A stretch of 64,000 nucleotides of DNA, from positions 1 to 64,000 of IMG/VR virus record IMGVR_UViG_3300008629_000003, one strand, 5' to 3'. The notes under the pieces were generated by a model that was given only the letters and a program-made list of their open reading frames with translations, did not search any database and had not been told where the DNA came from. This DNA is from a virus. Shown here piece by piece: positions 3,927 through 20,908 of this stretch; the stretch's first letter is position 1, and each line of letters starts with the position of its first letter. Made by a program: the position numbers and the translations under genes.

Positions 3927-4027
3927 CCTGACAAACTCTTTACATTGTTACGGTTGAACCTGGGTTTTGGGTCTGCTATATTGTATACAGATGGGGGGGG
4001 ATGAACCTCCTCAATCTGGAGGTTCAA
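3927..4027 (+). promoter_or_regulatory. promoter cassette A copy 3
   Basis: TTGAAC-17 bp-TATATT, leader hairpin, CTGGAGGTTCAAATG. Confidence 0.9.
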
Positions 4028-4735: not shown

Positions 4736-4745
4736 GGAGGTTCAC

Positions 4746-6580: not shown

Positions 6581-6641
6581 CCCCGTACGGTTCGGCCGTC
6601 GGGGCTTTCGGGGTAGGGGAATCGACCCCCTGGAGGTTCAA
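6581..6641 (+). repeat. hairpin cassette B copy 5
   Basis: CCCCGTACGGTTCGGCCGTCGGGGCTTTCGGGGTAGGGGAATCGACCCCCTGGAGGTTCAA. Confidence 0.9.
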
Positions 6642-7474: not shown

Positions 7475-7749
7475 CTCCACCAACCGTAAAGAAATTGGCG
7501 GAAAGACTTGCCACGCGGGAATTTATGGAGGTCATGGCGCTGGTGAAGGACCGCGTCGATTGCGTGGAGCGCGAACTAGCAGTCATCCGAAGCGCTCTCC
7601 ACCAAAAAACCGCCGATTTGGTAGAAGCACTCCTCGAAATTCAAGAGCTGAAGACGGAGCGTATGCTTCAGGGCCAGCAAATCCGCGATTTAGAGGCGAC
7701 CCTCCAGGCTCGCGACGCAATGATCTCGGAGCTTTTCGATGCTGCTTAG
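7471..7749 (+). CDS. coiled-coil hypothetical protein
   Basis: ATGA overlap; heptad-like composition. Confidence 0.7.
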   Translation: MTPPTVKKLAERLATREFMEVMALVKDRVDCVERELAVIRSALHQKTADLVEALLEIQELKTERMLQGQQIRDLEATLQARDAMISELFDAA

Positions 7750-7981
7750 AGACTCGATCCTACGAGTACAGGACCACCAGCTCGTCTACGATCCAACGCT
7801 TCGCACTATGATCACCATTCGCACCGCCGCCAGCCGACACGGGGTCGACGTGTGCTTCCAGCGTGCGAAGCGCCGCGTAGAGCTCCACGGCACCAGCGCA
7901 GCGGTGGAAGCCGTCTCCCGCGCTCTTGTTAGGCTGTGCATCGTGACGCGAAAACCCAGGAATAACCCCGGTTTTCCTTGA
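7739..7981 (+). CDS. hypothetical protein
   Basis: overlapping start; stop codon falls in the TTGACA of cassette A copy 6. Confidence 0.6.
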   Translation: MLLRDSILRVQDHQLVYDPTLRTMITIRTAASRHGVDVCFQRAKRRVELHGTSAAVEAVSRALVRLCIVTRKPRNNPGFP

Positions 7982-8076
7982 CAAACTCTTTACATTGTTG
8001 CGGTTGAACCTGGGTTTTGGGTGTGCTATATTATATACAGATGGGGGGGGATGAACCCTCCCAGTCTGGAGGCCCG
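7951..8076 (+). promoter_or_regulatory. promoter cassette A copy 6
   Basis: TTGAAC-17 bp-TATATT; upstream inverted arm AAAACCCAGG. Confidence 0.9.
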
Positions 8077-8304
8077 ATGTCTGTTCTTCCCGCGTCCCTT
8101 GCAAAGCTCGTTGACCGTCCCCTCGCTTTCTTTCAAGAGTGTGATCGCCTTGGCGCCATCCCGATGACGCGCGAGGAGCGCGCACGCTGGAAGACGCTGC
8201 GCGCCGCCGCTCGGACGGTTGGCCTGGCTGGCGCGGAGCGCGCCGAGTTTATACTTCTGAACAGCCGCCGATGCCGTAAAGTCGTTGCTTACGACAAGGG
8301 CTAA
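8077..8304 (+). CDS. hypothetical protein
   Basis: ATG after CTGGAGG. Confidence 0.7.
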   Translation: MSVLPASLAKLVDRPLAFFQECDRLGAIPMTREERARWKTLRAAARTVGLAGAERAEFILLNSRRCRKVVAYDKG

Positions 8305-8339
8305 CCGCACCCGCACCCGCTCACACCTTGGAGGTTCAA

Positions 8340-8558
8340 ATGGACAACACCACCGACATCGCCACCCTGAAGAAAATCGTTTCGATGGCCGTAGAGGCGC
8401 GCGGACACGAGGTCCGCTCGATTCGCATCGCCTTCGACGGGGCACTTGTGCAAGCGTTCAGCGTGAAGAGCGTTCCCGGCACGCTCGGCCACCCGGTAGT
8501 CATCGCCGAGCTTCGCGACAACGGCGAGGGACAGTTTGTTTTTTCGGTCGAAGAATAG
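8340..8558 (+). CDS. hypothetical protein
   Basis: ATG after TTGGAGGTTCAA. Confidence 0.75.
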   Translation: MDNTTDIATLKKIVSMAVEARGHEVRSIRIAFDGALVQAFSVKSVPGTLGHPVVIAELRDNGEGQFVFSVEE

Positions 8559-8639
8559 CGCGCCCCGCGCATAGCTCGCCCCGTACGGTTCGGCCGACGG
8601 GGCTTTGGGGGTAGGGGAACCAACCCCCTGGAGGTTCAA
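8556..8639 (+). repeat. hairpin cassette B copy 6
   Basis: CCCCGTACGGTTCGGCCGACGGGG, second hairpin and CTGGAGGTTCAA. Confidence 0.9.
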
Positions 8640-9128
8640 ATGTCCTACATGCAGCGCGCCGCGCTTGAAAACCACAACTACTGGAACGACCCCCGCGTCA
8701 TTCGCAGCCTTCAGCGCAGCGTCTACACGGTAAACGTGGAGGGTGGCTTCGTGGAACTTCGCGAGGGCATAGCAGATCAGATCGAAGACGCGGCCGAAGA
8801 GGGCGAACCGTTGCCGGCTTGGTACGAAGAGCATGGGTCAGAATTGCCCGCGCGCATCTTGCGAAGTCCATGCCAGGGTTGCGGCGGCACGCGGCGAATG
8901 GTCAACCCGTCTATCGATTGTGGGGGATTCGACCCCCAATCTGACCAAGACCTTGAAGACTACATGGGCGGCGTCTACGACGTGACTTGCTCGTACTGCG
9001 ACGGCACGGGAGCGCACTATGAGGTCATCATTCTGAACGCGGAGGCCAGGCGCTTCGTCCGGGAGTGGGAGCAGGAGGAGGCCGACTTTGCCTCCCTGTG
9101 CGCCGCTGAGCGCGCTTTCGGCTGCTAA
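8640..9128 (+). CDS. protein with DnaJ-type CxxCxGxG zinc-finger motifs
   Basis: CQGCGGTR and CSYCDGTG. Confidence 0.8.
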   Translation: MSYMQRAALENHNYWNDPRVIRSLQRSVYTVNVEGGFVELREGIADQIEDAAEEGEPLPAWYEEHGSELPARILRSPCQGCGGTRRMVNPSIDCGGFDPQSDQDLEDYMGGVYDVTCSYCDGTGAHYEVIILNAEARRFVREWEQEEADFASLCAAERAFGC

Positions 9129-9145
9129 TTCGTCACAGCGCCCCT

Positions 9146-9199
9146 CCCCCGTACGGCACGGCCGACGGGGGGTGTGGTGGTGGAACCAAGGAGCAAACC
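9146..9199 (+). repeat. hairpin cassette B copy 7 with ACCAAGGAG RBS
   Basis: CCCCCGTACGGCACGGCCGACGGGGG. Confidence 0.9.
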
Positions 9200-9421
9200 A
9201 TGAACAAGATTCTAACGATTTTCACATTCGCGGAACACACCACATGGCCGGGAGACATTGCGCTGCACGTGGAAAATCCAGACGAGACTCTAGGCGTCGA
9301 ACACCTGATCCACGTGGGAACCCGTGAACAACTGATCGCCGGCGCGCGGCGTTTGGTGGCGTCGGACTCTGCATTCCGGCGCCGCACGGGCCGCGCGCTG
9401 TTGTCCTACCTGGACGCGTAG
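9200..9421 (+). CDS. hypothetical protein
   Basis: ATG after AAGGAG. Confidence 0.75.
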   Translation: MNKILTIFTFAEHTTWPGDIALHVENPDETLGVEHLIHVGTREQLIAGARRLVASDSAFRRRTGRALLSYLDA

Positions 9422-9424
9422 CCC

Positions 9425-9622
9425 ATGCGATTCGCACCGAGACCGCACCGCGGCGACACCACGTTTCACAAGGACGGCACCGTCACCGTTTGGGACGTGT
9501 ACCGGCAAACGTGGCGCCGCGGGTCAAACCCCTGCGACGAACTTCTTGCCAGCCTTGACGAGACCACCCGCACCAAAATCATTCAGCACACAGGACAAGA
9601 CAATGACAAAGCCAACGACTGA
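9425..9622 (+). CDS. hypothetical protein
   Basis: ORF track; tightly packed with neighbours. Confidence 0.65.
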   Translation: MRFAPRPHRGDTTFHKDGTVTVWDVYRQTWRRGSNPCDELLASLDETTRTKIIQHTGQDNDKAND

Positions 9623-10457
9623 ATTTCCGAGCTGTTTTTATTGCTGCCCCACCTGTCCAGGGTGGGGTGTCTTTGAGACCGGCCGGGGAACCACTGAACT
9701 CCAGCGCTGCGACGATTGCGATCTCTACCCGACGGACGAAGACGCGTGGATCGCCGCGCTTCGCGTCGTCAAAGGCGAGACGGCGCCGGGAAAACTGTAC
9801 CCGCCACCCCGGTCCATTCGTATCGCAATCATCGGCGATTTGATGACAGGATTATTTGCCCTCCCGTCTTACGTGGCTGGGGTCCAACGTCTACTCGACG
9901 CCGACCCGTTGGCCGACGGGTCCGACTTGGAGCCGCCCACCGGCCTGACAGACCGTCAGATGCGAAAAATTGAGGCGCTAGGCTGGATCTTTGTCGAGAA
10001 CGACGGCTATGGCACGTATTTGGGGGAACCGGGATCGGACCAATGGGAAATCTTCATCCCCGCCGACGAGTACCACCAAGTCGACGACTACGTACCCGGC
10101 TACAAGCGGGATATTGCCGATTTGACTCCACTTGGGCGCCTGGTGCAGGCCGTTATTTGCAACGCGGCTGAGGGAGGCTCGACTCATTGGGGCTTGATCC
10201 GAAACTATCGCCACCATGTCGATGGCGTCGAGGTGCCCGCGTCTTTTGAGGTGAGAGACATGGAAGACCCTGCGGATCCCTGGAATACCATCACCTCCGA
10301 AAAAATCACGGAGGCTTTGAAGCGGTGCGCGGCAACCGGCCCGCGAGCTTTCCGGTACCGCCAAGCGCTACGCAATCCAGACGACGCAGACTTTGACGCC
10401 GAGGACGCCGACGTCCTTGTGCAGGTCGCGGCGTACGGATCGGTCACCTTCGCATAA
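9603..10457 (+). CDS. hypothetical protein with Cys-rich N-terminus
   Basis: CPTCPGW...RCDDC; ATG after AGGA. Confidence 0.75.
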   Translation: MTKPTTEFPSCFYCCPTCPGWGVFETGRGTTELQRCDDCDLYPTDEDAWIAALRVVKGETAPGKLYPPPRSIRIAIIGDLMTGLFALPSYVAGVQRLLDADPLADGSDLEPPTGLTDRQMRKIEALGWIFVENDGYGTYLGEPGSDQWEIFIPADEYHQVDDYVPGYKRDIADLTPLGRLVQAVICNAAEGGSTHWGLIRNYRHHVDGVEVPASFEVRDMEDPADPWNTITSEKITEALKRCAATGPRAFRYRQALRNPDDADFDAEDADVLVQVAAYGSVTFA

Positions 10458-10465
10458 TGCCCCTT

Positions 10466-10570
10466 ATCCCTTGACAATCTCTTTACATTGTTACCTTTGT
10501 AACTGGGTTTTGGGTGTGCTATAATGTATATAGAACGGGGGGGATGACCCCCCCCGGTCTGGAGGTTCAA
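10466..10570 (+). promoter_or_regulatory. promoter cassette A copy 7
   Basis: TTGACA..TTTACA..TTGTAA-17 bp-TATAAT..CTGGAGGTTCAA. Confidence 0.9.
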
Positions 10571-11044
10571 ATGAAGGCAGTGCAGAAAAAGTGGGCGGGC
10601 GTGTTCTCAACGGCGGCGGCGGGCCTGGACGTAGGCGAGCATCGGCGACTGATTGACCCCGCGGGGTCATTCATGGACCTTTCGGTAGAGAGGCTTGGAC
10701 ATAACCTTTTTTCTTTCAGCCACTACGGACTCCAGAACGGAGACCTCATGGCAGACCCGGACATGGAGTTTTTTCGGCCGGAGCCAGGGACTTCCCCGAA
10801 TGTCTGGCTCCCTATTACGTACCGCAACGACTACATGAGAAAGTTTGACCGGGCGGTAGTCGATTGGCAAAACGGAGAACCGCTGCGATACCACCGGCGC
10901 CTCCAAGCTTCCCTCGCGAAGTTTGCAAACACTTGGGCCGAAAACATCCAATTCCAACAGAGCGACGCGTTGGCCCTGCTGAAGAGCGGAAATTGCTGGA
11001 AGGGGCGCGCTCAGCCCGGCCGCAAGTTGTGGGACTTGGCGTGA
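10571..11044 (+). CDS. DUF1249/DUF6908-like protein
   Basis: SHYGLQNGDLMADPDMEF motif; ...FANTWAENIQFQ. Confidence 0.65.
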   Translation: MKAVQKKWAGVFSTAAAGLDVGEHRRLIDPAGSFMDLSVERLGHNLFSFSHYGLQNGDLMADPDMEFFRPEPGTSPNVWLPITYRNDYMRKFDRAVVDWQNGEPLRYHRRLQASLAKFANTWAENIQFQQSDALALLKSGNCWKGRAQPGRKLWDLA

Positions 11045-11310
11045 GCGCCGCCCACGACGGCAACACCGTGTGGTTTACTCGCGAGGTTGCCAAGTATGCG
11101 GAGGTATACGCGGACGCCTTCAATCGCGCGGCGTATGCGGTGCGGGGATGGGACGGAAAGGTTCCGCCCGAGACCCGGCGCGACGTGGACGAAATGGTGG
11201 AGCACTTCCGCCGATGGTACGCGCGAGCGTTTGAGGCGAACGCGAACCCGGCCCAGGTAGCCAAGGTCATGACATACCGATGGTGGCAACACTTGAGCCG
11301 CCGCCGCTGA
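11041..11310 (+). CDS. hypothetical protein
   Basis: GTGA overlap with the upstream stop. Confidence 0.65.
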   Translation: MSAAHDGNTVWFTREVAKYAEVYADAFNRAAYAVRGWDGKVPPETRRDVDEMVEHFRRWYARAFEANANPAQVAKVMTYRWWQHLSRRR

Positions 11311-11325
11311 TCGCTCTTCCCGCAT

Positions 11326-11391
11326 CCCCCCCCGTACGGTTTGGCCGTCGGGGCTTTGGGGGTAGGGGAATCACCCCCTTTGGAGGTTCAA
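11326..11391 (+). repeat. hairpin cassette B copy 8
   Basis: CCCCGTACGGTTTGGCCGTCGGGG..TTGGAGGTTCAA. Confidence 0.9.
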
Positions 11392-12360
11392 ATGGACTTA
11401 AACAACTTGCCGCGGCGCTGGCGAATGGTGGCCATCGAGGCAGTGCTTGAGCACTGCCTCAAGACGACACATGGGCCGGCAACGCCCACCGAAACACTGT
11501 CAGCGCTGCCCGGCGCGGACGTGGCCGAAGCGGCCTACACGGTGATCAAAAAGCGAGAACAAGAGATCGACAAGTTGACCAGTTTGGTGGAGGTGTACGG
11601 CCAAGACGCCGAAATGGCCACGCGACGGTGGATCGTGGCTGTCGATCAGGTGTTGGACAACTCGGTAGCCTGGGAGGACTTTGGAGGAGGCGCCCGGGTC
11701 GGTTGGATCGCTGTTACGGCTGCTGACGCCGCCCCGCGGTGGCGGCACGTTATGAACGCGATCGGTGTGGAGGAAGGCGACGCGCGGGATCTAGCGCGTG
11801 AGTTTTACAGCGTCCAAGGCGACTACGACGAGGAGGAGTTGGTGGTCGTGATTCCCGGGATCGCGCGGCCCTTGAAGCCGGCGGAGAACGACCCGGGACA
11901 ACGCGGGAGCCTCTTGTGGGATCACACGCTTAACTCCATGAAAAAGGCGGTGCAATATCACCTCCGCGAAATCTCCAACACCAACGGGGTTTCGTGTCGA
12001 TTCGACAACCTGGATAACCCGATATCCAACGACGCCGCCCTGGCGCAGTCGCTAATCACGCATTGGATTGAATGGTGGGACTATAACCAAAAGGGGTGGC
12101 GGTACACCTACCTCTTTCTGAAGACCGACGCCGAGGCCCGATCGATCGTGTCGTCGTTTTCGGTCGCCGATTATTCGGACTGCCACCACATTGCCGAGGT
12201 GAAGGTGGTTTCGGGACGTTTCGGCACCTACTACCGCACGGGAGCCGCCGACACGCCCAAAGTTGTCAAACACCTACGTCCCCTCGACGAACATATCAGC
12301 CTTTTGGCAATCGACGGGACGCACATTGTGACATTGTCCTACTATGGGCCTGGCCAATGA
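11392..12360 (+). CDS. hypothetical protein
   Basis: ATG after RBS; long ORF. Confidence 0.8.
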   Translation: MDLNNLPRRWRMVAIEAVLEHCLKTTHGPATPTETLSALPGADVAEAAYTVIKKREQEIDKLTSLVEVYGQDAEMATRRWIVAVDQVLDNSVAWEDFGGGARVGWIAVTAADAAPRWRHVMNAIGVEEGDARDLAREFYSVQGDYDEEELVVVIPGIARPLKPAENDPGQRGSLLWDHTLNSMKKAVQYHLREISNTNGVSCRFDNLDNPISNDAALAQSLITHWIEWWDYNQKGWRYTYLFLKTDAEARSIVSSFSVADYSDCHHIAEVKVVSGRFGTYYRTGAADTPKVVKHLRPLDEHISLLAIDGTHIVTLSYYGPGQ

Positions 12361-12791
12361 GCCGCACGTGTGGCGACTGCACGCGATGCTGCACCATGCT
12401 GTCAGTGCATGGGGACGGGTGGTACAAGCCGCCCGGGGTGCCTTGCGCTTCACAGGCCGACGGTGGGTGCAGCATCTACGCACAGCGGCCGGCAGCGTGC
12501 CACGCTTACCGTTGCATGTGGCTGGGCGGGTTCGGCACCCTTGACGACCGCCCCGACCGCGGACGGGCAATTTTTGAGCTCCAGAAGACGCATCTCAGCA
12601 CAAAGCCCACCGTCCTGATTCGTATGCACCGCGCAACGCTAGAGCAGATCGAGCGCGTGATGGCGCTGGCAAAGGTCGCAGGACGCAAGCGGCTGGTCAT
12701 TCTCATGACCGACAACGCCCGGCAAATCGTGGGCGGCCCCCCGAAAGTCGTAAAACAAGCCCGCAAAAAATTGGCCAGCGTCAACGAGTAG
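12357..12791 (+). CDS. YkgJ-like CxxCxxCC cysteine-cluster protein
   Basis: CGDCTRCC...C...GCSIYAQRPAAC..YRC. Confidence 0.85.
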   Translation: MSRTCGDCTRCCTMLSVHGDGWYKPPGVPCASQADGGCSIYAQRPAACHAYRCMWLGGFGTLDDRPDRGRAIFELQKTHLSTKPTVLIRMHRATLEQIERVMALAKVAGRKRLVILMTDNARQIVGGPPKVVKQARKKLASVNE

Positions 12792-12815
12792 CGCGGCGGC
12801 GCGCTCCTCACCTCA

Positions 12816-12869
12816 CCCCCGTACGGCACGGCCGACGGGGGCTTTTGGGTGTCACCAAGGAGAAACGAC
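12816..12869 (+). repeat. hairpin cassette B copy 9 with ACCAAGGAG RBS
   Basis: CCCCCGTACGGCACGGCCGACGGGGG. Confidence 0.9.
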
Positions 12870-13286
12870 ATGACCACCAAACCATCCACCGACCGTTATT
12901 TCGCTTTACGCGCTTTGATCACTGAGGCCAAAAACAATTGGGAGGACGCTTGCGCTGAACTGCATTTAGACTGTCTAGACAGCGCGGTAGACGACTTGTT
13001 GAACTTTGAAAACATCGCTAATCGCGTGCGATACATCGCAGCGATTTCCGATCTCGACCCTCACGATTATACGGACGCGGCCGACGCGCTTTATCTTGTG
13101 GTCGACGAATCCAACGACGCATTACAAGAGATCGCCGACGCAACCGAAGATCAGCCGACGGCGGAAAGGATCACGGCCGTTTTGGAAATCATGGAAAACG
13201 AAATCCTGCCCAACCTGGAGCAAGCGTTCGTCGACTTCGAACAAACGTGGGACGACACGTTGGCACTGGCCCAAAACCCAGGTTAA
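12870..13286 (+). CDS. acidic helical hypothetical protein
   Basis: ATG after AAGGAG; D/E-rich; stop lies in the cassette A inverted arm. Confidence 0.8.
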   Translation: MTTKPSTDRYFALRALITEAKNNWEDACAELHLDCLDSAVDDLLNFENIANRVRYIAAISDLDPHDYTDAADALYLVVDESNDALQEIADATEDQPTAERITAVLEIMENEILPNLEQAFVDFEQTWDDTLALAQNPG

Positions 13287-13399
13287 ACCCGCCGAATCCC
13301 TTGACAAACTCTTTACATTGTTACCTTTGTAACTGGGTTTTGGGTGTGCTATAATGTATACAGATGGGGGGGATGAACCCCTCCACTCTGGAGGTTCCA
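13270..13399 (+). promoter_or_regulatory. promoter cassette A copy 8
   Basis: TTGTAA-17 bp-TATAAT; upstream inverted arm CCCAAAACCCAGGTTA. Confidence 0.9.
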
Positions 13400-13675
13400 A
13401 TGAAACTCAGACTCACACGGACGACCGCACGCAGCATCATTTTAATGGGCTTGGACCACAGTGAGAAAGCGTTTGTACCAGGCCGAGACGCCAAAACCCG
13501 CACCGAGGCCCGCGCGTACATGCGCGCGGCATACGACGCGGCCGTGTCGTCGCTGGCTAGGATGTACGAAATCTCGCCGCGCGAGGTCCGCAAAATTACC
13601 GGCGCCATGCTGCGGAGCGCACAAGACGATTTCATCGCCTACGTGGGCGCCGAGCTCGACGGGGGTGCCCGATGA
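13400..13675 (+). CDS. hypothetical protein
   Basis: ATG after CTGGAGGTTCCA. Confidence 0.8.
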   Translation: MKLRLTRTTARSIILMGLDHSEKAFVPGRDAKTRTEARAYMRAAYDAAVSSLARMYEISPREVRKITGAMLRSAQDDFIAYVGAELDGGAR

Positions 13676-14595
13676 ACCGGATCGAATTGATGATCGAGGC
13701 CGCCGTTCGACGGTCATTTGGCGAATTCTTCAAGGCAGAGAGAAACCATCGGGTTGAGTCTGCAATCTCCTGGGCCATCGACGAGGCGTCACACATGGCG
13801 CTCGACCACTTCGACCCCGACGTCGTCATGGACGTTTTGGAATTCTACAGCGACTTTGAGATGTCATCTGGGGAGCTCGTAGAGTACATCGAAGACAACA
13901 GCACGGGCCCGGGTGATACGACTGCCCTGTGCACCGTTGCACGCTCGATGGTCTACCACGTCCTGGCTTACCAGATTACCAAGCGCGTTCGATTTTTGGC
14001 GACGGAGTACGAGAAGATCGAAGCTGCGGCGACACATTGGCACTACTACCGCAACCGTACAGTCGAGCGTCGCGAAAGCTGCCCAACGGCATGGGATACA
14101 CTCGTCCACAACGCCCACACCGACGCGGCAATCACCAACACGACCAAGCCGGTTTGGTCCATCCCACGCAGTCACGATGCGCTGGTGTTCTTTTTGGCCG
14201 GTACGGCTCTTCGATCGGATACCGCAGACATCTCGCCAACATCCAGTCCTATGGATTGTGCGAACAAGGCGGTGGAGAATCTTTTGCCAAGCTTGACGCA
14301 GGCGGAAGCTGCGCACATCTTGGAAAAAACAGAGCACCTACCAGAGGCCGCGGCGGCCTTCGCAAAGAGCGCCACGTCGGATGGAGCCTATGGCAATCCA
14401 CGAGCTGGACGCGCGGTGGGACTCTTGGCCCGCTTTGCCCTATTCGAGGATGTTTTTGATTATGTGCGGTTGGCACAGGAATTGGCCAAGGACGAACCCA
14501 TTACGTTCGGACATCTCGACGCCGATGGCAAGCTGATCAACTTTGGACCACAGACTCGCGTTCATAACGTGCCTGTTGTCCTTGTGGACGTGTAG
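13672..14595 (+). CDS. hypothetical protein
   Basis: ATGA overlap; 307 aa ORF. Confidence 0.8.
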   Translation: MNRIELMIEAAVRRSFGEFFKAERNHRVESAISWAIDEASHMALDHFDPDVVMDVLEFYSDFEMSSGELVEYIEDNSTGPGDTTALCTVARSMVYHVLAYQITKRVRFLATEYEKIEAAATHWHYYRNRTVERRESCPTAWDTLVHNAHTDAAITNTTKPVWSIPRSHDALVFFLAGTALRSDTADISPTSSPMDCANKAVENLLPSLTQAEAAHILEKTEHLPEAAAAFAKSATSDGAYGNPRAGRAVGLLARFALFEDVFDYVRLAQELAKDEPITFGHLDADGKLINFGPQTRVHNVPVVLVDV

Positions 14596-14604
14596 GACCG
14601 CGAT

Positions 14605-14634
14605 GGCCCCCGTACGGCGCGGCCGTCGGGGGCC
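14605..14634 (+). repeat. hairpin cassette B copy 10
   Basis: GGCCCCCGTACGGCGCGGCCGTCGGGGGCC. Confidence 0.9.
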
Positions 14635-14661
14635 TTAACCATCCCACCCCCCCGAGGTGAT

Positions 14662-14850
14662 ATGAGTAAAGTCATGCGAGGCCGTTCCAAGGCCGGCAAA
14701 AAACTATTGTCCATCTGGCTTAGTCCAGAAGAGATCGAAACACTGGACGAGTTAGCACTCCAAAATTTGCGAAGTCGTTCCTCTCAAGCCGCTTGGATCA
14801 TTTTGCAAGCACTGTCCGCGGCAGCCACCGCGGCCGATAACAAAACTTGA
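14662..14850 (+). CDS. ribbon-helix-helix (CopG/Arc-like) DNA-binding protein
   Basis: 62 aa; LLSIWLS strand, EEIETLDELA helix, RSRSSQAAWII helix; GAGGTG RBS. Confidence 0.8.
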   Translation: MSKVMRGRSKAGKKLLSIWLSPEEIETLDELALQNLRSRSSQAAWIILQALSAAATAADNKT

Positions 14851-14858
14851 CTTCGGGT

Positions 14859-14907
14859 GAGCTCGGACGGGCGATGGGTTGAACCTCCAGCAAGCCCGGC
14901 CGAGCTC
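14859..14907 (+). ncRNA. candidate anti-RBS hairpin sRNA
   Basis: stem GAGCTCGG/CCGAGCTC plus CGGGC/GCCCG; the loop holds TTGAACCTCCAG, the reverse complement of CTGGAGGTTCAA. Confidence 0.5.
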
Positions 14908-14924
14908 TCCCCTTTGGGAGGACT

Positions 14925-15410
14925 ATGCGAGTGTTGACCATTGAAGGGCGCGTCGTCGTACCCGTAAAAAACGACAACGGATACCGGTTCAGTTTTGTGG
15001 ACATACAACAAGTAGCGCCCGGCCGATTGGCCGATCTAGCCGAGCGGACGACTTCTCCTTTCGAGATTGCGCAAGCGCTAGGCAACGAAGACCTCGCCCC
15101 CGTTATCTTGCAAGACGTGGCCTGGCTCCAACCCCTTCCCGTCGGGACGAAAGTTAGAGTCTGCCAAACTGGTGAGCTTGTCACCTACGTTTACGATCGA
15201 GACTGGTATGCGGCCGACGTGAGCTCATGGGCTGCTGAAAAACGCGCCGAGGGTTTGGCTCCCCTGATCATCCGTATGCCCAAGACAGGGTGGAAAGCGG
15301 TAGCCATTGGGGCGAACATTCCGCCGCCACCGGTGGACTACTCCGTTCTGCTTGATGTGGTGCGAGGCTACGACGGAATGAAATCGGCCCGGGAGGTTAT
15401 GCTGTTGTGA
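14925..15410 (+). CDS. hypothetical protein, last rightward gene
   Basis: GGGAGG RBS; ORF track. Confidence 0.8.
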   Translation: MRVLTIEGRVVVPVKNDNGYRFSFVDIQQVAPGRLADLAERTTSPFEIAQALGNEDLAPVILQDVAWLQPLPVGTKVRVCQTGELVTYVYDRDWYAADVSSWAAEKRAEGLAPLIIRMPKTGWKAVAIGANIPPPPVDYSVLLDVVRGYDGMKSAREVMLL

Positions 15411-15634
15411 TATTTGACCGGCTGTGCGGGCATTTCACACGCCAGCGGCTCCCCGGGAGCGCCACACGCCGGGCACTCCAGCGGCCCGTCGTAGACGTTC
15501 GGGCAATCCATGCACGCGCGACGCGGGATCGGCTGCTTGCGCCTTTCCTCAAGAACCGCGCGCATTTTGGCGGCATTATCCCCGCCAAGCTCGGTCAACA
15601 CAAGCATAGCCATAGCCGAAACTAATTGATTCAC
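15368..15634 (-). CDS. small zinc-ribbon protein
   Basis: GTG start just after the tail protein stop; CMDC...CPACG. Confidence 0.55.
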   Translation of the reverse strand: MNQLVSAMAMLVLTELGGDNAAKMRAVLEERRKQPIPRRACMDCPNVYDGPLECPACGAPGEPLACEMPAQPVKYHNSITSRADFIPS

Positions 15635-15642
15635 GGTGCCCC

Positions 15643-17514
15643 CTAGAAATCTGCGTCGTGGTGCGGTGCGGCCATCGCCGCGGTGAACGAGTGATGGCAC
15701 ACCTTAGACGTCGAGGTGTTGAAGGGGAAAACAAGGTGATATCCGCCCGGCTTGGCCTGACAGATTCCGATTTGCTCTTCAAGCTGAGCCATCGTGCCGG
15801 TGTAGGCGGCGACGAATTCAGTACCTACAGCAACGACCGGAGATTGCGACACGTCGAGGCGCGTTGTGACGATTTGGCCGCCAACGCTGATCACCTGCAA
15901 GTCTCCATCAGGCGAGACCACCGCCGCTAAGTTTTCCTTCCCGGTTGTCGATAGCGTAAAGACGGCCAAGTTTGGGTCAGACGTTGGGCTCGACGGCGCC
16001 GGTTCTAGCTCCGTCTGCCCCTTGGCCACACCTACAGTCCCGCCCGTCGAGGTGTCGAGGAAAATGGTGTAGATGCTGCCGTCTGGAAGCTGACAGAGCT
16101 TCGCGCCATGATACCGAATTCCAGATCCGCCCGCGGGCGTTGCTATGGCATAACCTGCGGTCGTGTTGTGGTTCCATGTGGCGCCGTAGTCGTCGCTGTA
16201 GATGTACCGCACCTCACACGGCACCGTGACCCCGCTCATCGCATGATACCCGCCGACCAACACTAGGCGACCCTTCTTGAGAAGGACGAAGTCGTGGACG
16301 GCATCAATTCGGGCGGTGCCAGCCGGATCCCACACGGTCGAAATGAACACCCAGCTCGCGCCGTTGTTCGTGCTCCCGTACAGTTTGATCGCTTGGCCGT
16401 CGGTGCTTGGCGACGTGCGGAAGGCCGCTAAATGTGTGTGGGTAGACGCATTGGCGGGCAGCCGCACAACAGCGCACGAAGGGTATGTAGTGTCCCCCGA
16501 GTCAATCGTCACCGGAGACCCCCACTGGCCCGTCGGGGGGATGGCGTCGTACACGGCCGCCCGTAGCTCCCCGTTTGTTTCGTCTCCGTAGACACACACG
16601 ACCTTTTTGGCAGTCGGGGCCACGTCCGCACAAAGAGAATTGATCGAGCCAGCCACGGTCATCTCTCGCGACGGCACCAAATTCATGAGCGGAGCGTTTA
16701 GAGCTCTCCGACGGAGCCGGCTTGCCTGGCGTAAGTCAATGACATCCACCTTTGGACTTGTCGCGTCGTTGCGGCGAACATCGGCCAACAGCATGTACCC
16801 GGTTGCGGGGTTGCGGGTCCGCGTCACGACGGTGATTTCTGCGTACGCTCGCGCGTGGATGTCGGGGTCGGCTGGCGGTGTGCTCAAGAAGTCACCCGCG
16901 GCGGTGAACTTCACGCCGCTTTCGGCCGCAGGTGGAACCGACGTTAACGTCAACGAGGTGTCGGAGGCGACGCTGGTTACCTCATAGGTGCCGGCGTTGC
17001 CCGCGCTTGTGTCGGCCGCATCGACCCGGATCTTGGTACCGCGATTAAATCCGTCGGTAGTCTTGCCCGCATAGCGGGTAAATTTGCTTTGTGCGCTTCC
17101 AACGACCACCGCCGAAACTCCGTCGAATGTCAGCGTCCCGGGTTCGTAATCCGTAACCACCCGCCGCATGACAACGGTTCGCCAGGTGTTGTCGTTCGCC
17201 AGCGCGATGTCCTGAAAAAGAACCTCGTTCGCGGTTAAAACAAAGGGGTTTCCGTGTTGATCGACGGCATACGCAACACCATCATCGGCCCCGCCCTTAA
17301 CCCCGATACTTCCGTCGTCGTTGTCGTCGTGCACCTTCCACGCATCGCCGCGCGCATTGCCGGAAATCCGGGTGTAAACGATGCCCGGGAAGCCTTCAAA
17401 AAGCTGCCGCACGATATACCGGACCTGTTCTTGTCGATCCTCTTGGAGCCACTGTAGTTCGTCGACGCCCAACTGAAGGTCGAGCAGGTATTTCAAGCCG
17501 GTGGATGTGATCAT
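15643..17514 (-). CDS. tail fibre/receptor-binding protein with Asp-box (BNR) beta-propeller
   Basis: YGSTNNGASW and YSDDYGATW Asp-boxes; last gene of the baseplate cluster. Confidence 0.7.
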   Translation of the reverse strand: MITSTGLKYLLDLQLGVDELQWLQEDRQEQVRYIVRQLFEGFPGIVYTRISGNARGDAWKVHDDNDDGSIGVKGGADDGVAYAVDQHGNPFVLTANEVLFQDIALANDNTWRTVVMRRVVTDYEPGTLTFDGVSAVVVGSAQSKFTRYAGKTTDGFNRGTKIRVDAADTSAGNAGTYEVTSVASDTSLTLTSVPPAAESGVKFTAAGDFLSTPPADPDIHARAYAEITVVTRTRNPATGYMLLADVRRNDATSPKVDVIDLRQASRLRRRALNAPLMNLVPSREMTVAGSINSLCADVAPTAKKVVCVYGDETNGELRAAVYDAIPPTGQWGSPVTIDSGDTTYPSCAVVRLPANASTHTHLAAFRTSPSTDGQAIKLYGSTNNGASWVFISTVWDPAGTARIDAVHDFVLLKKGRLVLVGGYHAMSGVTVPCEVRYIYSDDYGATWNHNTTAGYAIATPAGGSGIRYHGAKLCQLPDGSIYTIFLDTSTGGTVGVAKGQTELEPAPSSPTSDPNLAVFTLSTTGKENLAAVVSPDGDLQVISVGGQIVTTRLDVSQSPVVAVGTEFVAAYTGTMAQLEEQIGICQAKPGGYHLVFPFNTSTSKVCHHSFTAAMAAPHHDADF

Positions 17515-17521
17515 TGTTTCC

Positions 17522-19525
17522 CTACGATTTAGCTAGAACCTTGCGCAAAACATCGGTCGCGACCCAACTGTTGACGGTCAATTGGACATCGATCTGAGTA
17601 GCAGAGACAACCCCCACCACCGTCGTCTCTTCTAGCACAGTGTTGGCCGCGTTACGCACCTCTACCGTGTCACCGGTACCAAACCCCTTCGTCGTCGCTA
17701 CGGTCAAGCGCGTGGACGTTGGGATCGGGTTTGTATCGGGTCCAGTCATTGCTGACGCCAGCGCGATCTCGTACTGCATGTCCACAGTCGAGATCGGGAG
17801 CAAGTTTTTCGCCGCCCAATACGCGATCTGTTCAGGTGTCAAAAGGGGCGCGGTGTTCGGAAACTCCAGGCAAAGGTCCAGAAGTGTCTGAGCGCTGTCT
17901 AGGTACACCGGGCTGACTTGTGGCCAAGTCTTCTCAAGGTTCCATCCGGCCAATGTTGCGACCTGTTGGTACGCTGGCAACTCCGAACAGCAAATCCGTT
18001 GGAGCTCTATCTCTGCGCCTCGTTTGGTTCCGCGCATTTCGGCGACGGCATATTGGTGGCGCATCCATAGGTCTTTTTCGTCGTTGAGACTGCACCCGCC
18101 GTCGATGAAGTTGGCCTCTACCCACGCCTGTAAAAATAACGGTCGGCGGCTGTTGTCCGACATCCGGTACCCTGCCGACGCGTGGCTTACGTATAGGGTG
18201 GTCGTGGTGTCCTGTGCCGCACCAATCCGCACCAAATCGGTACCCAAAGCGCCGGTGAAAACGCTGTATAGAACGCGATCGACAATGTACCCGTCGACAA
18301 CGAGGTACACAACCGACCGCCCGAACACGAGGACTTCGACCGTGTGTTCTGCTCCAACATCGACCCTCCACCCTTGGCCCACCTCCCCAAAGGTCGCCGC
18401 CGAGTCCGCATTCTTTGATAGTCGCCATTCGTATTGGCTGCCGGCCACGACTTCACGCAGGTACGCGTAGACCCCGCGGTGGCCGTTGTGGAGCTCTAGC
18501 ATTGGCCCGACTCGCTTCTCGGCGTCGGCCGTGAAGCTTTCCACCAAAAAAGTCGCACGCGCAACATACTGGACACGATTTGGCTTTGGCGTCGCCGGCG
18601 TCGTCGCCTGCATGTAATGAGGCGACGCACCGCCCGAGGGTGACATCTTGATCCGTTGACGCGTGACCGCTATGGTACCGCCAACCTGTGTCCATGCCGG
18701 CACCTCAGCCGAGGGCAAGCGATCGCCTAGAGCGTGCAACGCAAACACGTCTACCGTTGCCGCGGTGATAGCCGAGGGCACCTCTTCAAAGTCACTTTGT
18801 ACGCTCTCGAATACTCCGAGGGTGGCACGCGCCCCCGCTTCCGCAATTTCGGTCCATTGATCTCGGAGAGCTTTTGGCACCGTATTTTTGAGGCGTTCAA
18901 TTTGCCACGGTCTCGGGATCGGGCGGTTTAGGCCCGCCTCAACATCAAAGAGGCGCACCTTGCCCGCGCTGGCCCGCAAAATCCCAAGGCCGTACACGGG
19001 CTTGGACACCGACGGCGCAACCCCGAGGCCGTAAGGGATCGCGGCTTTCCATTCGTCATCAACGAACAACACCCAGCGCCTTGCGCGATCTTTCCTCAAC
19101 TTGTACCGGTGGCGCTGGTTCCACGACCAGCCGGTGGCGACTTCTGAAATCACCGTCCCCGCGGTGGGGTCAATGAATTGCAGCGTCGCCCCTACGGACA
19201 CACCGATTTCTCTCATCCCGTCAGAAATCGCCAAGACAATAGCCGACGCACCCGTTGAATAGGTCGGCTGGCTTACCCCCTGGAGGCTTACCTGAATCTC
19301 TGCCGCGTCTTGAGTCCTGACTACTCCGTTGGAGTCCACCTCGTGCAGCTTGTGAACAAACGCCGCAAGTGTAGCGCCCGAGGACTCGACAACGACCTCC
19401 GTGTCGTCATTGGCCAACAACGGCGCAACGCCCCCCGTATATGTCCACGGGTCTGGGGACGCCGCGGCGTTTGGAAGGTACCCCTTGGTCGGGCTGTAGT
19501 ATACGGTTCGGCGGTTGCTCGGCAC
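17522..19525 (-). CDS. baseplate wedge/tail-associated protein
   Basis: follows baseplate J; RGTKRGAE motif typical of tail-protein-I-like wedge proteins. Confidence 0.55.
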   Translation of the reverse strand: MPSNRRTVYYSPTKGYLPNAAASPDPWTYTGGVAPLLANDDTEVVVESSGATLAAFVHKLHEVDSNGVVRTQDAAEIQVSLQGVSQPTYSTGASAIVLAISDGMREIGVSVGATLQFIDPTAGTVISEVATGWSWNQRHRYKLRKDRARRWVLFVDDEWKAAIPYGLGVAPSVSKPVYGLGILRASAGKVRLFDVEAGLNRPIPRPWQIERLKNTVPKALRDQWTEIAEAGARATLGVFESVQSDFEEVPSAITAATVDVFALHALGDRLPSAEVPAWTQVGGTIAVTRQRIKMSPSGGASPHYMQATTPATPKPNRVQYVARATFLVESFTADAEKRVGPMLELHNGHRGVYAYLREVVAGSQYEWRLSKNADSAATFGEVGQGWRVDVGAEHTVEVLVFGRSVVYLVVDGYIVDRVLYSVFTGALGTDLVRIGAAQDTTTTLYVSHASAGYRMSDNSRRPLFLQAWVEANFIDGGCSLNDEKDLWMRHQYAVAEMRGTKRGAEIELQRICCSELPAYQQVATLAGWNLEKTWPQVSPVYLDSAQTLLDLCLEFPNTAPLLTPEQIAYWAAKNLLPISTVDMQYEIALASAMTGPDTNPIPTSTRLTVATTKGFGTGDTVEVRNAANTVLEETTVVGVVSATQIDVQLTVNSWVATDVLRKVLAKS

Positions 19526-20908
19526 TTAGAAGCTCTGGGAGAGGGATGCGTTGACTGTCGTTGCCGTGGCGGTGTCCAGCAAAGACAACCGGACAAGGTG
19601 TGGGAGGCTATCGGCGGCCACGACGACGTTAGCCGCGGGAAGAAATGCCGCGGTGTCTACAGACGAAACCCCCGGCGTATCGACCAGCAAAGACAACAGC
19701 TTGGCCTCGTCAACGTCGGCACCAAAGTCCCATTTTCGGTAATCCAGATAATCGGCCAACCTACCCGACGCCGACTTCCAGACAGCCTCCAGGGTGGTGT
19801 CTGTGTCGATCGTGATTTGGGCCTCGACTTCCACCGCCGTCAAAGTGATGTTTTGGAGGCTGACAGTCATGTGAGACCGTGAGCGTTGGCCGATGTAGAG
19901 CTCCAGCGCATCTAAGGCCGCGGTGGTAAAGACGTTACCCGACCGATGGAGTACCTTGGCCTCCATTTGCCCAGAAACCGTCGACGCTACTTGCACAACG
20001 CGTAGCACGTCGATGTTCCCGAGCTTGGCTATTGACTCCAACCAACTACGCGTCTCTTGAGACAGACCGGAAGGGCCGTGCACCGCGCGGTACTTCAGAT
20101 CAAAGTCGGTTTCTGTATCGGCGCCGCCTGTTGCCCGCTCGGGGTTTGAAACCGACAACAGGCCAGCGACCGACGGCGCCAAGTCTTCCGCGCTTAGCGC
20201 GTCCACATTTCCCGACGCCCCCGCCACCACCGCCTCAGCCCAGACCTTGTCGGCTAGAGATAGGGACGAGCTTTCGCCATCCAGCACGGCGTTCGCGTCG
20301 CCCGTCGTAACACTTGCCAACGTCTCGAAATTTACCCCGGCCGATGTGCTCAGCGTGGAGCCTATCGGGATCGTTTTTCGCAGAAGTATGTCCACATCAT
20401 CCGTCGACGGCGCATAGGTTCCCGACAAGGTGGCCACCTCGATCTCATCCCCCCCACCTGGCCCGGTGCCAGAGGTCACCGCAATGATGGTCGCCGTCTC
20501 GGTAACCGTTCCCGCCCCGTTGCGAATTCTGATCGAATTCGTTGCCGTAAAGCCCGCGCTATCGTCTACCTCAATCTTGTCGGTGCCCGCGCTGGTTATC
20601 GCTTGTACGTTTGCGCTGGTTGGCGTAAAAATGACCAACATCTTGGCGCGCTGAGCTCCAAACCGCTCCGCGCCGCGCTCGGCGGCGACCTCTGTTGCAA
20701 CGTCATCGCTGGCAGACAACAGCGTAAACCGGCGCAGCAATGCAGTATATAAGAGGTGTGAGTTGTAGGCCAAACCCGCCGTCGCGCCTGCCCATGCCCG
20801 CGCGACCGAGTTGCGGCCAAACCAAGTCACTTGGTCGGTGTATCGCCGAAACCTCTTGATCCACTCTTCCGTGTATTGCTCGGGCTTTCTAAGCTCTGGG
20901 ATTGACAC
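19526..20908 (-). CDS. baseplate J-like protein
   Basis: NSVARA...IPIGSTLST...AVVAGASGNV...NPERATGGADTETD motifs. Confidence 0.9.
   Translation of the reverse strand: MSIPELRKPEQYTEEWIKRFRRYTDQVTWFGRNSVARAWAGATAGLAYNSHLLYTALLRRFTLLSASDDVATEVAAERGAERFGAQRAKMLVIFTPTSANVQAITSAGTDKIEVDDSAGFTATNSIRIRNGAGTVTETATIIAVTSGTGPGGGDEIEVATLSGTYAPSTDDVDILLRKTIPIGSTLSTSAGVNFETLASVTTGDANAVLDGESSSLSLADKVWAEAVVAGASGNVDALSAEDLAPSVAGLLSVSNPERATGGADTETDFDLKYRAVHGPSGLSQETRSWLESIAKLGNIDVLRVVQVASTVSGQMEAKVLHRSGNVFTTAALDALELYIGQRSRSHMTVSLQNITLTAVEVEAQITIDTDTTLEAVWKSASGRLADYLDYRKWDFGADVDEAKLLSLLVDTPGVSSVDTAAFLPAANVVVAADSLPHLVRLSLLDTATATTVNASLSQSF

What the first reader, a model, noticed from the sequence alone, without database searches (positions are those of the whole stretch)
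14859..14907. Candidate anti-RBS sRNA able to silence the whole cassette regulon in trans
Seen: between the RHH gene and the next gene lies a 13-bp stem (GAGCTCGG-a-CGGGC / GCCCG-g-CCGAGCTC) whose 21-nt loop contains TTGAACCTCCAG (14879-14890). This is the exact reverse complement of CTGGAGGTTCAA, which precedes the start codons at 4028, 5817, 6294, 6642, 8640 and 10571. The leaders of 8340 and 11392 (TTGGAGGTTCAA) would pair through a G-U wobble. About eight more leaders carry a (G)GAGGTTC core. On the minus strand the motif has no start codon at RBS distance, so it is not simply another RBS. Known: the canonical 16S anti-SD explains GGAGG(TG) but not the TTCAA extension, and loop-displayed antisense RNAs such as P1 c4 exist. 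Inference: one small RNA could shut off translation of about 15 early genes through their shared initiation sequence, while the adjacent RHH protein controls transcription. The RHH gene (GAGGTG) and the 14925 gene (GGGAGGAC) lack the extension and would escape. Alternative: TGAACCT is a DNA operator, since it also forms part of the cassette -35 box.
Basis: partly seen in the sequence, partly recalled or inferred. Interest (0 to 1): 0.88.

Follow-up and report, generated by a model that had tools for sequence, protein, structure and literature searches.

The report
Hairpin loop complementary to shared RBS
A strong hairpin between two genes of an uncultured marine phage carries in its loop the exact complement of the ribosome-binding sequence shared by about fifteen of the phage's small genes; it could silence their translation, but it also looks like a recycled piece of the phage's own promoter cassette, and there are no expression data.

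Summary
A 13-bp stem (18-nt arms if extended, 14855-14911) encloses a 21-nt loop containing TTGAACCTCCAG (14879-14890). This is the exact reverse complement of the 12-mer that abuts six start codons, and abuts four more with one mismatch. By my curation, 15 of 27 module start sites pair with the loop over 9 or more contiguous bases. None of 27 late-gene starts reaches 7, and the RHH gene and the 14925 gene reach only 5.

The silencer reading is feasible but unproven, and two results weaken it. First, the loop is a shortened copy of the leader mini-hairpin of the phage's promoter cassettes (GATGGG..TGAACCTCC), so 9 of the 12 bases can come from ancestry. Second, no promoter lies nearby, and the hairpin sits where the phage puts its other post-stop-codon hairpins, with the same CTTT tail.

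No RNA data and no informative relatives could be found.

- **Best reading (0.45):** a cis-acting intercistronic hairpin derived from a cassette.
- **Trans-acting anti-RBS RNA:** 0.30.
- **DNA operator:** 0.12.
- **Minus-strand RNA:** 0.06.

The parts
13327..13355 (+). Nearest upstream sigma-70-like promoter (TTGTAA-17-TATAAT) in cassette A13295. It is the only candidate source of plus-strand transcripts through the hairpin.
   Evidence: no promoter scoring 9/12 or better on either strand in 14600-15150
14607..14636 (+). Member of the family hairpin CCCCGTACGG..CCGTCGGGG, 12 nt after the stop of gene 13672-14595. RHH transcripts must read through it.
   Evidence: (families D4/D5)
14662..14850 (+). 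Ribbon-helix-helix (Arc-like) gene, 62 aa
   Evidence: phrog_3431 Arc-like repressor, E 1e-8. Pfam RHH_5 at 19.5 bits, below its cutoff of 26.
14855..14872 (+). 5' arm of the hairpin (core 14859-14872). It begins 4 nt after the RHH stop codon.
14873..14893 (+). 21-nt loop, GATGGGTTGAACCTCCAGCAA. Inner 4-bp helix 14875-14878 / 14886-14889; apical heptaloop TTGAACC at 14879-14885.
   Evidence: pairing probabilities; resemblance to cassette leaders
14879..14890 (+). 12-mer TTGAACCTCCAG, the exact complement of the shared start-site core CTGGAGGTTCAA. It overlaps the 9-bp palindrome GGTTGAACC (14877-14885).
14894..14911 (+). 3' arm of the hairpin (core 14894-14907)
14912..14924 (+). CTTT tail followed by the SD GGGAGGA (14916-14922) of the next gene. 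The tail resembles those of the family hairpins (CTTTC/CTTTG/CTTTT + GGG).
14925..15410 (+). Downstream ORFan gene, 161 aa, the last plus-strand gene of the module
   Evidence: no family; only a 99% identical copy found; nothing usable
4016..4027 (+). Exact CTGGAGGTTCAA before an ATG, given as the example target. The other exact copies are at 5805-5816, 6282-6293, 6630-6641, 8628-8639 and 10559-10570. One-mismatch copies are at 8328-8339, 11380-11391, 13388-13399 and 1893-1904 (minus strand).
3990..4010 (+). Cassette leader mini-hairpin GATGGGGGGGGATGAACCTCC, the closest sequence relative of the loop. A second copy with the same 9-mer lies at 5780-5799.

Best explanation
The element at 14855-14911 is a cis-acting intercistronic RNA hairpin of the plus-strand ORFan module, built from the phage's own regulatory-cassette material. 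It occupies the slot where the phage otherwise places its post-stop-codon hairpins. It starts 4 nt after the RHH stop codon, is followed by CUUU, and then comes the next gene's SD. Its inferred roles are to form or attenuate the 3' end of the RHH message, to protect that message from 3' decay, and to keep the next SD unpaired. The loop is a shortened copy of the 5' leader mini-hairpin of the promoter cassettes: GAUGGG, then UGAA, then CCUCC, in which the G-run pairs with the C-run. That ancestry supplies 9 of the 12 bases complementary to the shared start-site core. On this reading the complementarity is mainly a by-product of descent, though the phage may exploit it. What is shown: the structure, its position, the leader likeness and the absence of a promoter. 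What is inferred: termination, stabilisation and insulation.
For: Position and tail. The family hairpins lie 12-20 nt after stop codons and are followed by CTTT(C/G/T)GGG. This hairpin lies 4-8 nt after the RHH stop and is followed by CTTTGGG.

The MFE leaves the SD GGGAGG of gene 14925 unpaired.

Leader likeness. A pattern for 'GATG-type start, G-run, A/T, TGA, A/C, CC' hits 5 cassette leaders plus the loop and nothing else in 72.7 kb on both strands; block shuffles give a mean of 0.03 and a maximum of 1 over 200 shuffles. I wrote this pattern after seeing the sequences. GATGGG alone occurs 39 times in about 145 kb of both strands combined, so finding it directly in front of the 12-mer is roughly a 1-in-1000 event (my estimate).

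All 8 of 8 cassette leaders fold into a 5'-terminal G-run/C-run hairpin. The loop's inner helix UGGG/UCCA is a miniature of that hairpin.

TGAACCTCC occurs in sense orientation only three times: in leaders A3922 and A5712, and in the loop.

No sigma-70-like promoter scoring 9/12 or better lies in 14600-15150, so the hairpin is made only as part of the operon transcript.
Against: The loop matches the start-site core over 12 bases, three more than any leader. Given descent, that is about 1/64 by chance, and the match ends exactly at the boundaries of the conserved core.

A 21-nt loop is unusual for a terminator. The consensus scan flagged neither this hairpin nor the family hairpins, because none has 5 T in the 8 bases after the stem. 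'Terminator-like' therefore rests on position alone.

A scored local alignment of 14840-14927 against the 12 cassettes finds nothing beyond the 12-mer on the minus strand (score 24) and scores of 20-21 on the plus strand. The null maximum has mean 18, sd 2.4 and a largest value of 29. The leader likeness therefore depends on allowing a free-length G-run.

No RNA data exist.
Confidence: 0.45

Rival explanations
1. Trans-acting (or long-range cis) anti-RBS RNA. The RHH message ends or is processed at the hairpin. The stable 3' stem-loop presents UUGAACC in an apical heptaloop, which nucleates pairing with GGUUCAA of the shared start-site core. Pairing then spreads to 12 bp by opening the weak inner helix and blocks 30S binding on about 15 module messages. 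The RHH protein acts on transcription in parallel.
For: Exact 12-nt complement on the co-transcribed strand.

By my curation, 15 of 27 module starts pair over 9 or more contiguous bases and 18 of 27 over 7 or more. None of 27 late starts reaches 7. The RHH gene and gene 14925 reach 5. Over 500 shuffled loops, the mean number of genes reaching 9 bp is 0.02 and the maximum is 2.

Estimated net energies are -7.2 to -14.6 kcal/mol for the ten starts with the exact or one-mismatch 12-mer.

The apical UUGAACC has unpaired probabilities of about 0.7-1.0.

The start-site core is specific to this phage. Other phages share the type-B intergenic element but use GGAAGGAG. The 16S tail of a candidate host-class MAG is the canonical GGATCACCTCCTTTCT. 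The 15-mer occurs at chance level in 401 Polyangia-class genomes.

The core is also kept at starts that lie outside cassettes, namely 2059, 3117, 3671, 4746 and 8340.

Mechanistic precedent: unpaired C-rich loop motifs of S. aureus RNAIII and RsaE bind SD sequences of several mRNAs (PMC2790875, passages read). The 6C sRNA binds multiple targets through C-rich loops without a chaperone (PMC6486639, abstract read).
Against: No promoter was found, and neither processing nor a proven terminator is shown.

The transcript must first pass the hairpin at 14607.

One RNA from one promoter would have to titrate messages from at least 8 promoters of the same family (inference).

Forcing the 12-mer open costs about 4.2 kcal/mol. 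A 12-bp helix inside a closed 21-nt loop is strained (established RNA topology, not computed here).

9 of the 12 bases, plus the GATGGG prefix, are explained by descent from a cassette leader.

Two abundant leaders carry the same 9-mer, apparently without silencing the module (inference).

The complementarity counts are true by construction once the 12-mer is known.
Confidence: 0.3
2. DNA operator. The 9-bp palindrome GGTTGAACC in the loop is a binding site for a phage repressor, perhaps the adjacent RHH protein. The same site overlaps the -35 hexamer of five cassette promoters. The copy downstream of the RHH gene would serve autoregulation or act as a roadblock before gene 14925.
For: GGTTGAACC occurs 6 times in the window against 0.60 expected, and 0 of 100 shuffles reach 6. 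Five copies sit at cassette -35 boxes (751 on the minus strand, then 3952, 4429, 5742, 8002) and one sits in the loop.

Cassettes also carry an upstream inverted copy of the -35/spacer element (pairs I8, I14 and I21), which suggests a protein that binds paired sites.

The RHH gene is adjacent.

A double-stranded DNA site works in either orientation (general knowledge).
Against: The five promoter copies are repeats of one cassette, so they are not independent.

The match to the -35 context is 10 nt (GGTTGAACCT), while the match to the start-site core is 12 nt. The extra CCAG would be chance at about 1/256 on this model.

The palindrome is 2 bp off the centre of the large inverted repeat (coordinates).

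Nothing explains why the start-site core is conserved at genes with no promoter nearby.
Confidence: 0.12
3. The minus-strand RNA is the functional form. Either it is a P22 sar-like antisense RNA that starts inside gene 14925, covers that gene's start site and ends at the hairpin, or read-through from the late operon produces a hairpin that displays CUGGAGGUUCAA as a decoy for whatever factor recognises the shared start site.
For: An Arc-like gene lies immediately upstream, as in P22 immI, where arc, the antisense RNA sar and ant lie together (PMC2629481, passages read).

The minus-strand fold is as good as the plus-strand fold: -35.4 kcal/mol, z = -3.14.

A weak minus-strand promoter candidate exists at 14968 to 14940, TTTACG-17-TTCAAT.

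The minus-strand late unit appears to run at least to 15368 and converges on gene 14925 (ORF read by eye).
Against: The promoter candidate scores only 8 of 12 and fails the -10 rule used.

The downstream gene has no antirepressor family hit.

No U-tract follows the minus-strand stem.

The decoy idea has no identified factor.
Confidence: 0.06

Closest known systems
PeSL mobile regulatory cassettes of T4-type phages (Arbiol et al. 2010, PMC2839356, seen as search listing and start of abstract only; Comeau et al. 2014, PMC4122927, passages read)
   Same: This comparison concerns the surroundings of the hairpin. Both have repeated intergenic composites of a sigma-70-like promoter, a G-run/loop/C-run stem-loop, an SD and a start codon, flanking small ORFan genes in a variable region. 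This phage has 8 promoter cassettes and at least 4 hairpin-plus-RBS cassettes within 15 kb.
   Different: In PeSLs the stem-loop lies upstream of the promoter (PMC4122927, legend of Fig. 3). Here the G-run/C-run hairpin lies in the transcribed leader. This phage was not shown to be T4-like. The 14859 hairpin is not a full cassette, because it has no promoter. No PeSL is described there as carrying a complement of the shared SD.
C-rich-loop sRNAs that bind SD sequences: S. aureus RNAIII and RsaE (PMC2790875, passages read) and the mycobacterial 6C sRNA (PMC6486639, abstract read)
   Same: An unpaired C-containing motif in a hairpin loop, complementary to the SD region of many mRNAs, and G-C-rich pairing that may need no chaperone.
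   Different: Those are discrete, promoter-driven, experimentally detected RNAs with short UCCC/C-rich seeds against generic SDs. Here there is one loop with a 12-nt match to a phage-specific, homogenised start-site core. It has no promoter of its own, no expression data, and sits inside an operon.
P22 immI (arc, sar RNA, ant) and the P1 c4 antisense RNA. The P22 arrangement is from PMC2629481 passages. Details of sar and of c4 are recalled, not read.
   Same: A small repressor gene of the Arc type with an RNA regulator in the adjoining intercistronic space, giving control at both transcription and translation.
   Different: sar is transcribed from the opposite strand and targets the single neighbouring gene. 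Here the complementarity is on the sense strand and is directed at distant genes. The neighbouring gene's own SD is not matched (5 bp only).
T4 RegA (translational repressor of many early mRNAs) and RegB (endonuclease cutting GGAG in early SDs). Both are recalled; no paper was read.
   Same: The logic of shutting off a class of early genes through a signature in their translation initiation regions.
   Different: Those effectors are proteins. No homologue was looked for or found here.

Membership tests
Trans-acting base-pairing sRNA with an anti-SD loop (RNAIII/RsaE/6C type) | Made as a discrete, stable RNA | not testable with these tools
   No RNA holder was listed among the 4 runs found, all DNA from one study. 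Contigs cannot show RNA ends.
Trans-acting base-pairing sRNA with an anti-SD loop (RNAIII/RsaE/6C type) | Own promoter, or a defined processing or termination site | tested here: not met
   No sigma-70-like site scoring 9/12 or better in 14600-15150. The tail has only three T, so termination is not established.
Trans-acting base-pairing sRNA with an anti-SD loop (RNAIII/RsaE/6C type) | Unpaired C-containing seed in a loop | tested here: inconclusive
   The apical UUGAACC is mostly unpaired, but the UCC of CCUCC is largely paired to GGG. Opening all 12 nt costs about 4.2 kcal/mol.
Trans-acting base-pairing sRNA with an anti-SD loop (RNAIII/RsaE/6C type) | Complementarity to the SD/start region of several mRNAs, above controls | tested here: met
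   15 of 27 module starts pair over 9 bp or more, against 0 of 27 late starts at 7 bp or more. Shuffled loops give a mean of 0.02 genes.
Trans-acting base-pairing sRNA with an anti-SD loop (RNAIII/RsaE/6C type) | Conservation or covariation of seed and targets in relatives | not testable with these tools
   No relative carrying the module was found. The region is identical in three runs of one study.
Intrinsic (Rho-independent) terminator | G+C-rich stem | tested here: met
   13-18 bp stem, -38.6 kcal/mol
Intrinsic (Rho-independent) terminator | Short loop and a U-tract directly after the stem | tested here: not met
   The loop is 21 nt and the tail is CUUU. The scan did not flag it. The phage's family hairpins also fail the U-tract rule.
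PeSL-type regulatory cassette | Promoter plus stem-loop plus SD plus start codon as one repeated unit | tested here: not met
   This applies to the hairpin itself. It has leader-like loop sequence but no promoter and no similarity to the rest of a cassette. The surrounding 8 cassettes do meet the feature.
P22 immI-type arc/sar/ant module | Arc-like repressor gene directly upstream | tested here: met
   phrog_3431, E 1e-8; Pfam RHH_5 below its cutoff
P22 immI-type arc/sar/ant module | Antisense promoter at the start of the downstream gene, and an antirepressor gene downstream | tested here: not met
   The best minus-strand candidate scores 8/12. The 161-aa protein has no family.
RHH-repressor DNA operator | Symmetric or repeated subsites at regulated promoters | tested here: inconclusive
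   The palindrome GGTTGAACC occurs 6 times, 5 of them at -35 boxes, but those five are copies of one cassette. Binding cannot be tested here.

The most novel reading that the evidence does not exclude
A phage has homogenised the translation initiation region of about 15 accessory genes to one signature, (C)TGGAGGTTC(A)A. It also encodes, at the 3' end of its Arc-like repressor message, a stem-loop whose apical loop is the exact complement of that signature. A single anti-RBS RNA would then switch off translation of the whole gene class while the repressor switches off its promoters. This would be an RNA counterpart of T4 RegA/RegB-type class-wide shut-off.
Probability: 0.3. Interest if true: 0.75.

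Novelty: new member of a known kind. Interest (0 to 1): 0.5.

Why it matters
If the loop acts on the shared start site, this would be the first case I am aware of in which a phage controls a whole class of its own genes through one anti-RBS RNA aimed at a deliberately uniform initiation sequence. That statement is limited to my four literature searches, none of which listed such a case. It would also make the function of PeSL-like cassettes testable at the level of translation.

If it does not act in trans, the locus still shows how cassette fragments are recycled into new intercistronic structures. It sits in a previously undescribed marine phage lineage that is probably linked to Polyangia/Nannocystales hosts. 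That phage has an unusually sharp contrast between strong, uniform SDs in its accessory module and weak SDs in its structural genes.

Tried and rejected
**Chance.** Rejected. An exact reverse copy of the 12-mer is expected about 0.004-0.008 times in 64 kb (my arithmetic; one search gives 0.22 for up to 1 mismatch on both strands).

**A hidden minus-strand gene start.** Rejected. No start codon follows the motif. The 128-aa minus-strand ORF through the hairpin (14798-15184) is antisense to gene 14925 and did not pass my GC3/SD filter.

**A promoter inside the hairpin using TTGAAC as -35.** Rejected. No -10 hexamer lies at 16-18 nt spacing.

**Cis anti-SD sequestration in the cassette leaders.** Largely rejected. 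In all 8 of 8 leaders the C-run pairs with the G-run in the MFE, and the SD lies 3' of that hairpin. The probability that GGAGG is unpaired ranges from 0.01 to 0.88.

**The host 16S tail explaining TTCAA.** Rejected for one Polyangia MAG.

**Known RNA families and tRNAs.** No Rfam family reached its gathering score and no tRNA was found in the window.

**Searches for relatives, all uninformative:**
- Phage database, megablast of 1-20000: none.
- IMG/VR searched with the 161-aa and 307-aa proteins and with a cassette pattern: none.
- TerL relatives of 52-54% identity exist only as fragments of 6.4, 7.0 and 28 kb, and none holds the 12-mer.
- GTDB genomes searched with TerL: none.
- JGI metagenomes searched with a 20-nt promoter pattern: one hit with no further similarity, taken as chance.
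- The 161-aa protein has only a 99% identical copy, seen on 3 contigs, the longest 81,701 bp.

**Sequencing runs.** No RNA holder was listed. The four DNA runs of one marine study hold the phage, and contigs from X1, X2 and X3 covering the hairpin showed no differences.

**The 161-aa protein.** The ESM Atlas gave nothing usable; its own model has pLDDT 0.39.

**Lysogeny.** No integrase was seen among the 10 ORFs I scanned from 63.4-72.7 kb. The record is estimated to be 81% complete.

**Tools and files not used.** I did not need supplementary files of papers and did not ask for any. I did not use structure prediction, complex prediction or the RNA-model tools, because with no homologues they could not decide the question.

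Full report
**What the window is.** The window is the first 64 kb of a 72,693-bp IMG/VR virus record, estimated 81% complete.
- The minus strand from 63552 down to about 15643 carries a myovirus-type structural module: large terminase, portal, major head protein, sheath, baseplate wedge and tail fibre.
- The plus strand from about 2030 to 15410 carries small genes almost all without a family, as do a few minus-strand genes left of 1990.
- DNA runs that hold the phage are marine metagenomes from one study.
- No Rfam family and no tRNA was found.

**The observation.**
- The stem has 13 bp with one A/G mismatch. It can extend to 18-nt arms, 14855-14872 and 14894-14911.
- The plus-strand RNA folds at -38.6 kcal/mol with z = -2.69.
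- CTGGAGGTTCAA occurs exactly six times on the plus strand, each time abutting an ATG, and once on the minus strand, in the loop. Four further copies have one mismatch. Shuffles give 0.22 matches, against 11 observed.
- In my table of candidate starts, 16 module starts carry GAGGTTC. The 26 late starts have weak or varied SDs and none carries it. The RHH gene and gene 14925 have different SDs.

**The surroundings.** The module is organised by two repeated intergenic cassettes.
- *Type A*, 8 copies: plus strand at 3922, 4399, 5712, 7972, 10465 and 13295; minus strand near 680-800 and 1883-2007. Each has a highly conserved upstream block, a sigma-70-like promoter (TTGAAC-17-TATATT or TTGTAA-17-TATAAT) and a leader of about 38 nt ending in the start-site core.
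- All eight type A leaders fold in the MFE into a 5'-terminal hairpin in which a G-run pairs with a C/U-run across a loop containing AUGA. Compensating variants occur: CGGGGGGG/CCCCCCCG in A10465 and CCGGGGGG/CCCUCCCGG in A1883-. The SD follows directly after this hairpin.
- *Type B*, 4 plus-strand copies: a family hairpin CCCCGTACGG..CCGTCGGGG, then CTTT, a second small G/C hairpin and the same start-site core.
- The family hairpin occurs 8 times on the plus strand, always shortly after a stop codon. One copy lies at 14607, just before the RHH gene.
- The overall arrangement resembles the PeSL cassettes of T4-type phages (PMC4122927, passages read).

**What the loop resembles.**
- The sense-strand 9-mer TGAACCTCC occurs only three times: in leaders A3922 and A5712, and in the loop. 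In the leaders it forms the loop and 3' arm of the 5' hairpin.
- The loop begins with GATGGG, as those leaders do.
- A pattern for a GATG-type start, a G-run, A/T, then TGA(A/C)CC finds five leaders, the loop and nothing else in the record. Block shuffles give a mean of 0.03. I wrote this pattern after seeing the sequences.
- The inner helix of the loop (UGGG with UCCA) is a miniature of the leader's G-run/C-run pairing.
- The loop is therefore most simply a shortened leader mini-hairpin, which accounts for 9 of the 12 complementary bases.
- A scored local alignment with ordinary gap costs does not detect this likeness. It gives plus-strand scores of 20-21 and 24 for the minus-strand 12-mer, against a null maximum of mean 18, sd 2.4 and largest value 29. 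The likeness depends on treating the length of the G-run as free, which it is among the cassettes (5 to 8 G).

**What speaks for an anti-RBS function.**
- The loop extends the complement by three bases beyond any leader. Given descent, that is about 1/64 by chance.
- The match ends exactly where conservation among start sites ends.
- The apical heptaloop UUGAACC is largely unpaired and complements GGUUCAA, the phage-specific part of the core.
- By my curation, 15 of 27 module starts pair over 9 bp or more, none of 27 late starts reaches 7 bp, and shuffled loops almost never do.
- Rough net energies after opening costs are -7.2 to -14.6 kcal/mol for the ten starts with the exact or one-mismatch 12-mer, -4.0 for the RHH gene and -1.8 for gene 14925.
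- The core is a property of this phage, not of the cassette or the host. Two other viral contigs share the whole type-B element but use GGAAGGAG.
- The family hairpin also occurs in three Myxococcota MAGs. One of them has the canonical 16S tail, which pairs with GGAGGT only.
- The 15-mer CTGGAGGTTCAAATG gives 2 single hits in 401 sampled Polyangia-class genomes, against 3 hits for the reversed control.

**What speaks against it.**
- No sigma-70-like promoter scoring 9/12 or better lies within 14600-15150 on either strand. The hairpin can only be made from the promoter at 13327, after passing the hairpin at 14607.
- It would have to act on messages from at least eight promoters of the same family (inference).
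- Neither termination nor processing at the hairpin is shown. Its tail has three T, like the family hairpins, and the consensus scan flagged none of them.
- Two leaders carry the same 9-mer at the 5' ends of presumably abundant messages.
- The complementarity statistics are true by construction once the 12-mer has been seen.

**Other readings.**
- *DNA operator.* The loop contains the 9-bp palindrome GGTTGAACC, which otherwise occurs only at the -35 boxes of five cassettes. Several cassettes also carry an inverted upstream copy of the -35/spacer element. A DNA operator for the adjacent Arc-like protein is therefore possible. However, the loop matches the start-site core over more bases than it matches the -35 context.
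- *Minus-strand RNA.* The arrangement is reminiscent of P22 immI (arc, sar, ant; PMC2629481, passages read). The only minus-strand promoter candidate scores 8/12, and the downstream protein has no family.

**What could not be done.**
- No RNA run holds the phage.
- The hairpin region is identical in contigs of three runs of one study.
- No relative with the module was found in the phage, IMG/VR, JGI or GTDB collections.
- The tool that could have fetched the near-identical 81.7-kb contig is closed.

**Verdict.**
- The best-supported reading is a cassette-derived, cis-acting intercistronic hairpin (0.45).
- The trans-acting anti-RBS RNA remains a live and testable hypothesis (0.30).
- A DNA operator (0.12) and a minus-strand RNA (0.06) follow.
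- If the anti-RBS reading is right, it is a new variant of known loop-to-SD antisense control. Otherwise the hairpin is an ordinary structural element in an unusual, PeSL-like phage module.

Noticed in passing
window 3922-4030, 4399-4504, 5712-5819, 7972-8079, 10465-10573, 13295-13402 (+); about 680-800 and 1883-2007 (-): Eight copies of a promoter cassette of about 108 nt: a conserved upstream block, a sigma-70-like promoter, a 5' G-run/C-run leader hairpin and a uniform SD. They flank ORFan genes, an organisation like the PeSL cassettes of T4-type phages.
   Followed up: partly
window 3874, 6232, 6580, 8578, 9146, 11329, 12816, 14607 (+); 220-263 and 1177-1220 (-); loci L013-L020: The family hairpin CCCCGTACGG..CCGTCGGGG, found after stop codons, also occurs in five viral contigs whose fetched stretches show no protein similarity to this phage. 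Two of these share the adjoining small hairpin. It also occurs in three Myxococcota MAGs titled Polyangia, Nannocystales and 'bacterium'. This is a clue to the host and points to an intergenic element shared among phages.
   Followed up: partly
window 742-812, 7951-8018, 13270-13344: An inverted copy of the -35/spacer element (AAAACCCAGG..AACC facing GGTTGAACCTGGGTTTT) brackets the conserved upstream block of three cassettes. This could be a pair of protein-binding sites.
   Followed up: no
window 15368-15634 (-): An 88-aa minus-strand ORF with two CxxC pairs (zinc-ribbon-like, read by eye) follows the last late gene. It overlaps the 3' end of plus-strand gene 14925-15410, so the two transcription units converge and overlap.
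   Followed up: no
window 15643-63552 (-) compared with 1-15410: Structural genes have weak or no SD sequences, while the accessory module has a strong, nearly uniform one. This points to two translation regimes in one genome.
   Followed up: partly
window 4406 / 5718; also 260 / 1146 and 817 / 1146: Logan contigs break at the cassettes. One contig of run X4 joins 5718 back to 4406, which equals the 1313-nt spacing of two cassettes. This reflects either cassette-mediated recombination or assembly ambiguity at repeats.
   Followed up: no
window 39298-45705 and 45937-49758 (-): Two very large proteins (2135 and 1273 aa) lie within the minus-strand module. Only their C-terminal parts match a phage DNA helicase family (phrog_62).
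   Followed up: no
window 2029-3045 (+): A protein related to phosphoadenosine phosphosulfate reductase (phrog_424, E 2e-22) is the first plus-strand gene of the module.
   Followed up: no
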